Shown here piece by piece: positions 44,701 through 47,700 of a stretch of DNA of 64,000 bases. The number at the start of each line of letters is the position of its first letter. Position 1 is the stretch's first letter. Source of the stretch: Rotaria socialis. Its lineage: Eukaryota. A program made the translations under genes and the position numbers. Under the pieces are notes generated by a model. The model was not told where the DNA came from. It was given only the letters and a program-made list of their open reading frames with translations, and made no database searches. The stretch is from positions 124,001 to 188,000 of the forward strand of contig CAJNYD010000459.1 of NCBI GenBank assembly GCA_905331295.1, read 5' to 3'.

Positions 44701-47700
44701 GATTTTTGAGACCAATATGCAATAAATTCGAGACAATATTTCTTTTTTTAGCTTGCGCGTCATAATCGTGAACTTGAAGGACTAATGCAAAAACGAACAC
44801 TACATGATGAAGCGCTATCCTATTATCATAAACATACAGCTGAAATTGAAATCATTCGACATGATCGATCAATTGAACCAAGTATTTATCAATGTCTTTT
44901 GTTCGATTTAAAATCTAAATTAGTGTTATTTTACAGTTGTTTTTCCTGTTCCACAATTATGTGAATTTTTAACTGTTGAAAAAAAGCAAAAAGTCTTTTT
45001 GACATGTGAACAAGATGAACAAGGTTCAAAAGTCAAAGATTTCTTTGAGAAATTTCCAGAAATATTCGAAGAAATGAAATGGCAAAGAAAATTACGCCAT
45101 CAACCAACATTATATTGGTTTTCATCTCATATGTCTTTATGGAGTGATATATCATTTAATTTTGCTGTTTTAATCAATATACTCGTTGCTGTTTTCTATC
45201 CATTTAATAAAGGTCTTAAAGGTATAAGTATTTATTTGAAAAATGAAATCAAACATATTGAATTGGTATTTGTTTTTCTTTCTTTCTATAAGATCTTGAT
45301 CCTCGTGCTTCCGCAGCTATATGGAGTGCATTATTTATTACCTTAGTTGCTATCTTAATAAGACCAAATGTAGCATCGATGCGTATGTTTTTTGTTGCCG
45401 GAATTTTACGGTCAATTTATTCTGTTGGTCTTGGCCCTACTCTATGGTTCATGGGAGCAATACAGGTAGAATCTATTGAGCGAATTATTTGTAGTATTAA
45501 CTAAGTTTATTTATTTATTTCAGGTGTTAAATAAAGGTGTATTTTTAGTTAGTTTTATGGGCAATAATGGGACATTTTCTAAATCGCGCTATGAAAATTT
45601 GGCAAATTTTGAGCTTGTTTATCATGTCGGATATTTATTCCTTTGTGTACTTGGTTTATGTGTTCATGAATTCTTCTACAGTTTATTGGTAAGTTGAATA
45701 TGAATATATATATATATATATATATTTATTAATTGTTGATTGCTTGATGTTAGTGGCTTAGTTGCAAATATGTTTAGTTTGTTTTATATATTATTTTGTA
45801 GGAATAGAAAATTGATTTTAAAGATTAGATTGAAGAAACGTTTTTTATCCAAGAGATAAGCATAATTCCTATTTTAAGTATGAAATGGATTCAATCATTA
45901 ACTTTCAATAGCTATTACTGGACTACCTTGCCATGAGCACTTCGTTGATGGTTAAATAAGTTAAAGTCTTCTGTAGACCTATGATTTCGATTAATAGCAC
46001 GAAATCTTCGTGTTTGTAAAAATAGCATTTTTTAATAAGTTTTCTTTTAAATAAAAATTGTTTTGAGTCTATTCAAAGACCGGAGTCGACAACCATGTAG
46101 AAACCAATCTTCTGTAGCTCGTTATAGACTTAGTTTTTGAATTATTTCAATAAAATTATTTACAAGTAGCTGTTTAGTCATAATCTATAAAAAAAAAAAC
46201 TGAAAATTTGTTAAGCATAATGAAATGTTTGTGAATTTATCGAGCTTTCTTTCAGTGATGAAAAACGAGTGAGCGAATATTTTCAAACTATCGATGATTT
46301 TTGTTATTATTTAAAATTATAGAAGAGTATTTTTCTTCATTTGTTATTTAAAACAAATTAGTTCAGTCGTATTTGATAATTGATAATAAAAATTCATTTG
46401 TTTTCAGCCCTGTATCCGTTCTACGGAATATATGTTAGCCGCCGTCTATACTAAAATATACTTAATAGACTCTTTATTGTAAGAGAGAATATGATAAATC
46501 TTTTTTTCTTCTGAAATCAGCCGATCAACTGTGTATTTACAAAAATATAACTGTTGAAAATTTCTCTTGAAATAGAATTTCTTCTAAAATTTAATCTATA
46601 TATATATTTGATGTTGTGATGTATTGCTTATCTTAGTTACTCGATGTTGTGTATCGTGAAGATACTCTATGGAATGTAATTCAATGTGTTGTACGCAATG
46701 CTAAATCAGTTATATTAACAGCTGTATTTGCTGTTATAATCATATATTTATTTGCTATATGTGGCTATTTATTTATCCAAGATGATTTTCTTATGGAGGT
46801 GAATACGAAACCACTTGGGATTTCACAGCAAAATGATACGAAGATTTTGAGTAAGTCAAATAGAATCATTCGAATTTTTCTCACTCTCTCATTTCTGTTG
46901 AATGCTTTTGTTGCTTTCTATGTCATTTGAATATTATTGTGAAACTAAAGGAAAAAGAATAGAACATGAAAATTAACTTTTCTGTTTCCAGTTACTTGAT
47001 ATGATTTTTCGGGATGCAACCTTATTTCAAGTAACACAATCAGTGACACGAAATGGAAAATCGATTATGTTAACAATGATGCTCGCACTTATACTAATTT
47101 ATCTTTTTTCTCTTGTGGGTTTTATTTTTTTTCGTGATGATTTCTTAACAAATATTCAAACAAGATTATATTCATCATATCCTCATCATCGATATCGACG
47201 TTCAAATAGCACTCTTAAAACAATGACACTGACGCGTATGTCAAATTGTCGTTGTCAATGTTTCGTGTTTATGTGTATTGTTGAGAAGAATTTGAAATAA
47301 ATATTCTTCATTTTGTATTTTTAGCTACAACCATTCCAAGCATATTAAATGATGGATATTGTACTAAAGATAATTGTACTAATGATACATTAGCAAATAA
47401 TATTCGTCATGCAACTCAACCATTAAATGTATTGTCAGAAGAAGCAGCAGATGAAGAAGTTGAACGGTCTTGTGATACGTTATTTATGTGTATTGTTACA
47501 ACACTCAACAAAGGCTTGCGAAATGGTGGTGGTATTGGTGATGTTCTAAGGCAACCTTCTAGTCAAGTATGTTTAGAGGAAAAAAGTTTACTTTTTACAT
47601 GCTAGTTCACTGGGTTTCTTTTTTCGAAAAGAAAACGTTTGCTAAAATGAAATAGAATAAAAAATAATCTTCCTGTGATTACTGTAGCTGTATTGTTGTT

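What the first reader, a model, noticed from the sequence alone, without database searches (positions are those of the whole stretch)
46637..47235. Duplicated, mutually exclusive exons encoding the S4-S5 linker and TM5 of the IP3 receptor
Seen: exon A 46637-46850 ([51 protein letters not shown]...) and exon B 46992-47235 ([51 protein letters not shown]...). Both are stop-free, have AG/GT sites and run phase 0 to phase 1, so including both shifts the frame. Established: this segment couples gating to the pore and starts the luminal loop. Inference: a single gene builds channels with two alternative pore modules and luminal loops. I do not recall this being described for IP3Rs, whose known splice sites are mostly cytosolic.
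Basis: partly seen in the sequence, partly recalled or inferred. Interest (0 to 1): 0.75.

Follow-up and report, generated by a model that had tools for sequence, protein, structure and literature searches.

The report
Swappable gating exons, rotifer IP3 receptor
A rotifer's IP3-receptor calcium-channel gene carries two old, conserved copies of the exon for the gate-coupling linker and fifth membrane helix, only one of which fits the reading frame at a time, so one gene likely makes two channel types that would differ in gating and in their lumen-side loop.

Summary
A bdelloid rotifer IP3-receptor gene holds two tandem exons, A (214 nt) and B (244 nt). Both encode the end of S4, the S4-S5 linker, S5 and the start of the luminal loop, and share 26 of 51 core residues. 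Both are 3n+1 long, so including both or neither gives an early stop. The pair, with splice sites and phases, recurs in 13 of 19 metagenome loci. A is invariant (dN/dS about 0.003). B is looser but selected (about 0.17), so it is not decaying. One RNA contig splices A to the next common exon, skipping B; no joint using B was seen. A groups with an acanthocephalan sequence and B keeps general-animal residues, so the split likely predates bdelloids. A's luminal tail is neutral or acidic with an N-glycosylation sequon; B's is strongly basic. Conserved GUUGU elements lie before A and after B, the layout reported for CELF-type switches, and a predicted hairpin covers B's donor without significant covariation. 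The pore helix, filter and S6 are shared. My paper searches found no such splicing in IP3 receptors.

The parts
29708..48730 (+). IP3 receptor (ITPR) gene, approximate span of coding exons found by homology
   Evidence: tblastn of related proteins P0040, P0046, P0099 across the window; start and end approximate
45524..45688 (+). Upstream common exon (up to the end of S4), ends in phase 0
   Evidence: the joint from the preceding exon is seen in RNA contigs of run X1
46609..46617 (+). Conserved intron element (GUUGU type) 20-28 nt before the acceptor of exon A; candidate repressor site or branch-point region
   Evidence: 7 of 9 distinct loci vs 1 of 26 control introns; alignment; positions and shuffles
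46637..46850 (+). Alternative exon A: end of S4, S4-S5 linker, S5, neutral or acidic luminal tail with N-glycosylation sequon
   Evidence: spliced to 47325 in one RNA contig
46903..46909 (+). UGCUU element in the A-B intron; candidate regulatory site
   Evidence: 9 of 9 distinct loci at variable positions, shuffled mean 3.4; motif chosen after the fact
46992..47235 (+). Alternative exon B: same segment, with a strongly basic luminal tail
   Evidence: no splice joint seen
47220..47255 (+). Predicted hairpin pairing the end of exon B with the start of the next intron, around B's donor
   Evidence: conserved complementarity, covariation not significant
47246..47255 (+). Conserved intron element (GUUGU type) 11-20 nt after B's donor; also the 3' strand of the hairpin
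   Evidence: 7 of 9 distinct loci vs 1 of 26 controls
47325..47566 (+). Downstream common exon (rest of luminal loop, pore helix, selectivity filter), starts in phase 1
   Evidence: acceptor used in RNA
47984..48149 (+). Common exon encoding S6
   Evidence: covered by spliced contigs

Best explanation
Two old, diverged copies of one IP3-receptor exon sit side by side and only one fits the reading frame at a time, so the gene likely makes two channel subunits that would differ in the S4-S5 linker, S5 and the first luminal stretch while sharing the pore filter and gate. Shown: the duplication, the frame lock, selection on both copies, and one A-only splice joint. Inferred, likely (about 0.85): B is also spliced into productive mRNA, as the rarer or tissue-restricted form, with A the default. 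Inferred from known rules (about 0.7): double-inclusion and double-skip messages are removed by nonsense-mediated decay, because the 84-141 nt A-B intron is long enough to be spliced. Inferred, speculative (about 0.3): one GU-binding factor of the CELF type flips the choice, repressing A from the element before it and activating B from the element after it; binding there would also open the predicted hairpin that otherwise weakens B's donor. Predicted effect on the protein: a different grip of the linker belt on S6 (opening threshold or open probability), and a switch from a glycosylatable neutral or acidic luminal tail to a basic one that would change luminal partner binding.
For: Frame arithmetic holds in 14 of 14 sequences (the A donor of L001 was corrected by hand). 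13 of 19 fetched loci hold A then B with conserved AG/GT. Pooled dN/dS over 45 pairs of 10 sequences is 0.003 for the A core and 0.17 for the B core, against 0.083, 0.010 and 0.014 for three common-exon controls (36 pairs each). A is invariant at 51 of 51 core columns over 13 sequences, B at 36 of 51 over 14. Run X4 has one contig joining 46850 to 47325 (GT..AG, 24 letters on the short side). Named proteins place A and/or B in Rotaria, Adineta and Didymodactylos, with both exons in two Rotaria sp. Silwood1 paralogues. Tail contrast: A net charge 0 to -3 with a sequon in 14 of 14; B net +4 to +6 with an Arg-Arg pair in 14 of 14 and a sequon in 3 of 14. A model of a natural B-bearing protein gives a linker helix followed by the S5 helix, and its best structural matches are IP3 receptors. 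The linker's belt role is from PMC10613215 (passages); the CELF position rule is from PMC3627589 (abstract and section 13).
Against: No joint into or out of B, and no upstream-exon-to-A joint, was listed; cover is thin (4 runs, contigs only, depth mostly 2-6) and the A joint rests on one contig from a wastewater metatranscriptome. X1 has depth over part of B, but those pieces were not listed and short chance matches occur in that run, so this is not evidence of use. None of the 47 hits of the two exon-B protein searches is a clearly transcript-derived spliced form. The hairpin shows no significant covariation (148 of 500 shuffles; self vs non-self pairing p 0.13), its z-score in the window itself is only -1.2, and it is weak or not above shuffles in 4 of 12 loci. 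The intron motifs were picked after the fact from related, non-independent loci, are absent in 2 of 9, and mostly lack the final G of the worm motif. No functional data exist.
Confidence: 0.82

Rival explanations
1. B is a spare copy that is never, or only by error, spliced and is slowly decaying.
For: No RNA joint for B; B varies far more than A.
Against: B is stop-free, 3n+1 and flanked by intact splice sites in 14 of 14 sequences that differ by up to 23% in B-core bases; its length changes only in whole codons (208-244 nt); dN/dS is 0.17; 26 more short database proteins keep the B frame intact.
Confidence: 0.05
2. B works mainly as a poison exon: splicing A to B makes a stop and lowers receptor level through decay.
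For: A+B gives a stop within B in 14 of 14 sequences; the A-B intron is long enough to be removed.
Against: Selection acts on B's amino acids in the IP3-receptor frame, which a poison exon would not need; the stop position after A wanders from the 2nd to the 48th codon read in B.
Confidence: 0.06
3. Both exons go into one protein through a phase-0 donor inside A, giving a subunit with an extra membrane helix, as several database gene models have it.
For: Models P0001, P0003, P0046 and P0051 of Rotaria sp. Silwood1 join A and B in frame; a GT in phase 0 exists near the end of A's core in some loci.
Against: The models use different join points; the conserved A donor is phase 1 in 14 of 14; an extra helix would invert the pore loop and S6 (established six-helix topology); the one RNA joint skips B.
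Confidence: 0.03
4. On origin only: B is a recent, bdelloid-only copy of A that evolved fast, or was brought in from another IP3-receptor gene.
For: B sits on a long branch (0.62); no non-bdelloid sequence with two copies was found among 197 proteins that hold the segment; only 56 columns inform the tree.
Against: Holding bdelloid A and B together against Pomphorhynchus and the rest is rejected (AU p 0.003; groups named after the tree was seen); B keeps the outgroup residue at 10 sites where A is changed, and at 5 of these the six A-like non-bdelloid rows mostly share A's state. The wider test was borderline (p 0.053). Import from a paralogue is not excluded.
Confidence: 0.2

Closest known systems
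Homologous mutually exclusive exon pairs that rely on nonsense-mediated decay (C. elegans survey, PMC4165533, passages)
   Same: Tandem homologous exons, not 3n long, frame kept only by single inclusion; the paper reports decay dependence in 14 of 19 such clusters.
   Different: The term itr-1 does not occur in that paper's main text; decay dependence is untested here.
Insect ryanodine-receptor mutually exclusive exons in SPRY2 (PMC6026295, passages)
   Same: Sister family of calcium-release channels; old, conserved either/or exon pair.
   Different: That site is cytosolic; this one is in the membrane domain of an IP3 receptor. The authors state that they did not try to map such exons in insect IP3 receptors.
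UNC-75/CELF position-dependent switch in C. elegans (PMC3627589, abstract and section 13)
   Same: GU-rich element upstream of one exon and downstream of the other.
   Different: Only the GUUGU core is conserved here; no binding, factor or tissue evidence; the downstream element doubles as a hairpin strand.
Vertebrate IP3R1 splice sites SI, SII, SIII and the three-gene subtype system (recalled; alternative splicing in mammals is mentioned in PMC6026295)
   Same: Ways of diversifying IP3 receptors; ERp44 regulation through the luminal side is reported as specific to type 1 (PMC10235943, passages).
   Different: The recalled sites are cytosolic cassette insertions, not duplicated exons; here one gene would swap linker, S5 and luminal start.

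Membership tests
IP3 receptor gene | Full-length homology from the N-terminal region to the channel domain | tested here: met
   Collinear tblastn over 29.7-48.7 kb; Ion_trans hits for both exons; best solved-structure matches are IP3 receptors, far ahead of ryanodine receptors
Mutually exclusive homologous exons | Tandem exons encoding the same segment, with the same phases and canonical splice sites | tested here: met
Mutually exclusive homologous exons | Both copies conserved under purifying selection | tested here: met
   dN/dS 0.003 and 0.17; intact in 13 related loci
Mutually exclusive homologous exons | Each exon observed singly in mRNA | tested here: inconclusive
   A joined to the downstream exon in one contig; no joint for B
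Mutually exclusive homologous exons | Double-inclusion and double-skip messages absent or degraded | not testable with these tools
   Both give early stops in 14 of 14 sequences, but RNA depth is too low to count them
Steric-exclusion type | Intron between the exons too short to splice | tested here: not met
   84-141 nt against a median of 57 nt for 26 roughly called control introns; a distal branch point was not excluded
U2/U12 incompatibility type | Mixed minor and major splice sites | tested here: not met
   All sites are ordinary GT-AG with major-type donors
Docking site-selector type | One conserved element pairing with selectors at each exon | tested here: not met
   The element before A has no consistent pairing partner across 11 loci; only a local hairpin at B's donor was found
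CELF/UNC-75-regulated exons | GU-rich motif upstream of the repressed exon and downstream of the activated exon | tested here: inconclusive
   GUUGU in 7 of 9 loci at both places, 0 of 8 in two common introns; post hoc, core only
CELF/UNC-75-regulated exons | Factor binding and tissue-specific dependence | not testable with these tools
   Needs binding assays, knockdown or minigenes

The most novel reading that the evidence does not exclude
Since before bdelloids split from acanthocephalans, one IP3-receptor gene has encoded two channel subtypes by swapping the gating linker, S5 and a luminal tail of opposite charge. The choice is set by one element that is both an RNA hairpin strand over B's donor and a CELF-type binding site. 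This gives a natural pair for testing how linker and luminal tail tune IP3-receptor gating, possibly tied to cell type or to drying and rehydration.
Probability: 0.25. Interest if true: 0.75.

Novelty: new variant of a known kind. Interest (0 to 1): 0.55.

Why it matters
Known IP3-receptor diversity comes from separate genes or cytosolic inserts (recalled). Here selection has kept two versions of the linker that belts the gate (PMC10613215 passages) and of the luminal entry, inside one gene and over a long time. The two forms differ at 25 of 51 core positions on an otherwise identical channel, a ready-made experiment on how this segment sets gating, and mixed tetramers become possible. It also shows that public Rotaria gene models that join both exons are probably wrong.

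Tried and rejected
No genome is held for the window. A narrower second read-laying over the two exons gave no result, so the joints at 46637, 46992 and 47235 stay unseen. Depth of run X1 over exon B was not counted as evidence because its pieces were not listed. Two Adineta vaga isoforms in a cluster list proved to be an unrelated acetyltransferase-like protein, not A/B isoforms; that gene is not in the window. The Atlas search did not name the taxon of the A-like protein P0026. A scan for long-range docking partners found none consistent. RNAalifold kept only a 4-pair stem, with no two-sided changes. My automatic donor pick failed for L001 (a tie) and was corrected from the printed sequence. 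The upstream-exon query was in the wrong frame and was not used. Control introns were called roughly and a few are probably wrong. Near-identical loci L005, L009, L010 and L013 were dropped from pooled dN/dS; motif counts used 9 sequences (L003 also dropped), and the duplex test used L010 in place of L011. A search of earlier findings by sequence found nothing. No complex prediction was run.

Full report
Observation. A (46637-46850, 214 nt) and B (46992-47235, 244 nt) are open in frame 0, flanked by AG and GT, and both 3n+1. The common exon before them ends in phase 0 at 45688, and the one after starts in phase 1 at 47325. Each alone restores the frame. A plus B stops at 46997-46999, and skipping both stops at the 8th codon of the next exon. 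Both align to solved IP3 receptors from human type 3 residue 2345 onward. They share 26 of 51 core residues. The gene spans about 29.7-48.7 kb, and this is its only clear duplicated exon.

Organism. The best protein hits are named Rotaria, Adineta and Didymodactylos, and the introns are short and AT-rich, so the window is from a bdelloid rotifer (inference). No genome is held for it.

What the exons encode. A model of the natural B-bearing protein P0006 (mean pLDDT 74, pTM 0.46) shows a helix at 5-17, a long helix at 19-43, a low-confidence luminal region, then pore helix and S6. Its top structural matches are IP3 receptors (E 3e-18; TM-scores low, about 0.35). So the swapped part is the end of S4, the S4-S5 linker, S5 and the first 18-30 luminal residues. 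The pore helix, filter and S6 are shared. PMC10613215 (passages) describes the linkers as a belt around S6 that must relax for opening. PMC10235943 (passages) places regulatory cysteines in the third luminal loop and notes type-1-specific ERp44 regulation.

Conservation. A metagenome scan gave 19 loci. Thirteen hold A then B (L001-L013; L013 starts inside A). L019 is bdelloid-like but ends inside A. L014 ends 158 nt after its exon. L015 and L017 hold a single copy ahead of the downstream exon, and L016 and L018 show a single copy in about 1.1 kb. The 13 loci collapse to 8 distinct types. In all 14 sequences, window included, both exons are stop-free and 3n+1 with conserved donors and acceptors, while their lengths vary by whole codons (A 214-238, B 208-244) (L001's A donor corrected by hand). 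Pooled dN/dS over 45 pairs of 10 sequences is 0.003 for the A core and 0.17 for the B core; three common-exon controls give 0.083, 0.010 and 0.014. A is invariant at 51 of 51 columns, B at 36 of 51. B is therefore maintained but less constrained than A, which fits a minor or restricted isoform (inference). Two different Rotaria sp. Silwood1 paralogues each carry both exons (P0001, P0003). Their database models, and P0046 and P0051, join A and B in frame at differing points, which is most likely an annotation artefact.

RNA. Four runs hold part of the stretch, all as contigs. They show seven ordinary GT-AG joints of this gene and one joint 46850 to 47325 in run X4, that is A spliced to the common exon with B left out. 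It rests on one contig, depth 3.2, with 24 letters on the short side. Run X1 has a 132-nt contig identical to A. It also has depth over part of B, but those pieces were not listed, so I do not count them. No joint into A, into B or out of B was listed. None of the 47 hits of the two exon-B protein searches is a clearly transcript-derived spliced form; they are gene models, intron read-throughs or outgroup proteins. Use of B is thus inferred, not shown.

Age. In a tree of 35 rows and 56 columns, A groups with the acanthocephalan Pomphorhynchus laevis (100/98) and then with five unnamed A-like sequences (100/99), while B forms its own clade outside these. B keeps the outgroup residue at 10 sites where A is changed; at five of these (core positions 17, 22, 25, 31, 33) the six A-like rows share A's state in 5 or 6 of 6. 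Forcing bdelloid A and B together is rejected (AU p 0.003). Forcing them together with Pomphorhynchus is borderline (p 0.053). The groups were named after the tree was seen, B is a long branch and the alignment is short. The likely reading is a duplication before bdelloids and acanthocephalans split. The unnamed rows may be monogonont rotifers, which I could not show. No non-bdelloid protein with two copies appeared among 197 proteins holding the segment, but gene models pick one exon, so this is weak.

How the forms differ. A's luminal tail has net charge 0 to -3 and at least one N-glycosylation sequon in 14 of 14 sequences. B's has net charge +4 to +6 and an Arg-Arg pair in 14 of 14, and a sequon in 3 of 14. 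In the linker and S5, A has fixed Cys, Val, Ala and Phe where B and outgroups have Ser, Thr, Gly and Leu; B has its own fixed or near-fixed changes at core positions 6, 8, 15, 29 and 30. Different gating and luminal partners are predicted, not measured.

How the choice may be made. Steric exclusion is unlikely: the A-B intron is 84-141 nt against a control median of 57. All sites are major-type, and no docking partner was consistent. Decay of frameshifted messages is the expected backstop; PMC4165533 (passages) reports it for 14 of 19 non-3n clusters in C. elegans. Three intron elements stand out. GUUGU lies before A in 7 of 9 distinct loci and after B in 7 of 9, against 1 of 26 control introns each and 0 of 8 in two common introns; 0 and 3 of 1000 shuffles reach these counts. 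UGCUU lies in the A-B intron in 9 of 9 (0 of 1000 shuffles). The element after B also shows in 21 of 33 intron read-through proteins. These motifs were chosen after the fact from related loci, so the figures are optimistic. The GUUGU layout matches the UNC-75/CELF rule, upstream for repression and downstream for activation (PMC3627589, abstract and section 13). The end of B also pairs with the intron start across B's donor: mean duplex energy -15.8 kcal/mol over 9 loci, against -4.1 to -6.4 for four other donors. Folding z-scores are below -2.4 in 5 of 12 loci, -1.2 in the window and near zero in 4. Covariation is not significant. My working model is A by default, with a GU-binding factor blocking A's acceptor region and opening B's donor; I give it about 0.3.

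What is known. Seven paper searches bear on precedent. Three returned nothing; for the others I saw listings and abstract starts only, apart from PMC6026295. None names a duplicated or mutually exclusive exon in an IP3-receptor membrane domain. PMC6026295 (passages) documents such exons in insect ryanodine receptors (SPRY2) and says the authors did not map them in IP3 receptors. Subscription journals, isoform databases and supplements were not seen, so absence from print is not proven. Earlier scan notes describe comparable pairs in other channels (unchecked); none concerns an IP3 receptor.

Verdict. This is a real, conserved and probably ancient mutually exclusive exon pair in the gating part of an IP3 receptor. 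The mechanism class is well known; the place appears to be new for this channel family. Interest 0.55.

Noticed in passing
window 18026-19831 (-) and 20097-21659 (+): Two long single-ORF genes with AIG1-like GTPase hits, head to head, at about 41% GC against about 30% for the window; the first holds a tandem 7-residue repeat near 18450-18750. Possible horizontal-transfer candidates, untested.
   Followed up: partly
window 5249-11749 (-): Pieces of a hAT-type transposase; the C-terminal dimerisation domain hits Pfam, the other pieces are assigned by appearance.
   Followed up: partly
window 45689-46636: The intron before exon A is 948 nt here and 660 and 693 nt in L010 and L011, but 52-85 nt in the other ten loci; it resembles them only near the acceptor.
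   Followed up: partly
window 46609-46617 and 46640-46650: The conserved intron element before A repeats almost exactly inside the start of exon A; meaning unknown.
   Followed up: no
window 49888-51468 (+) and 60132-60470 (-): A glycosyl hydrolase family 18 gene follows the receptor; a ribosomal protein L37 gene lies further on.
   Followed up: no
proteins P0001, P0003, P0046, P0051, P0037: Rotaria sp. Silwood1 gene models join exons A and B in frame, and one model fuses an acetyltransferase-like neighbour to the receptor N-terminus; both are likely annotation errors.
   Followed up: partly
L002:414-973: In this one locus of 14, keeping the A-B intron leaves an open frame through A and B; not conserved, probably chance.
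   Followed up: yes
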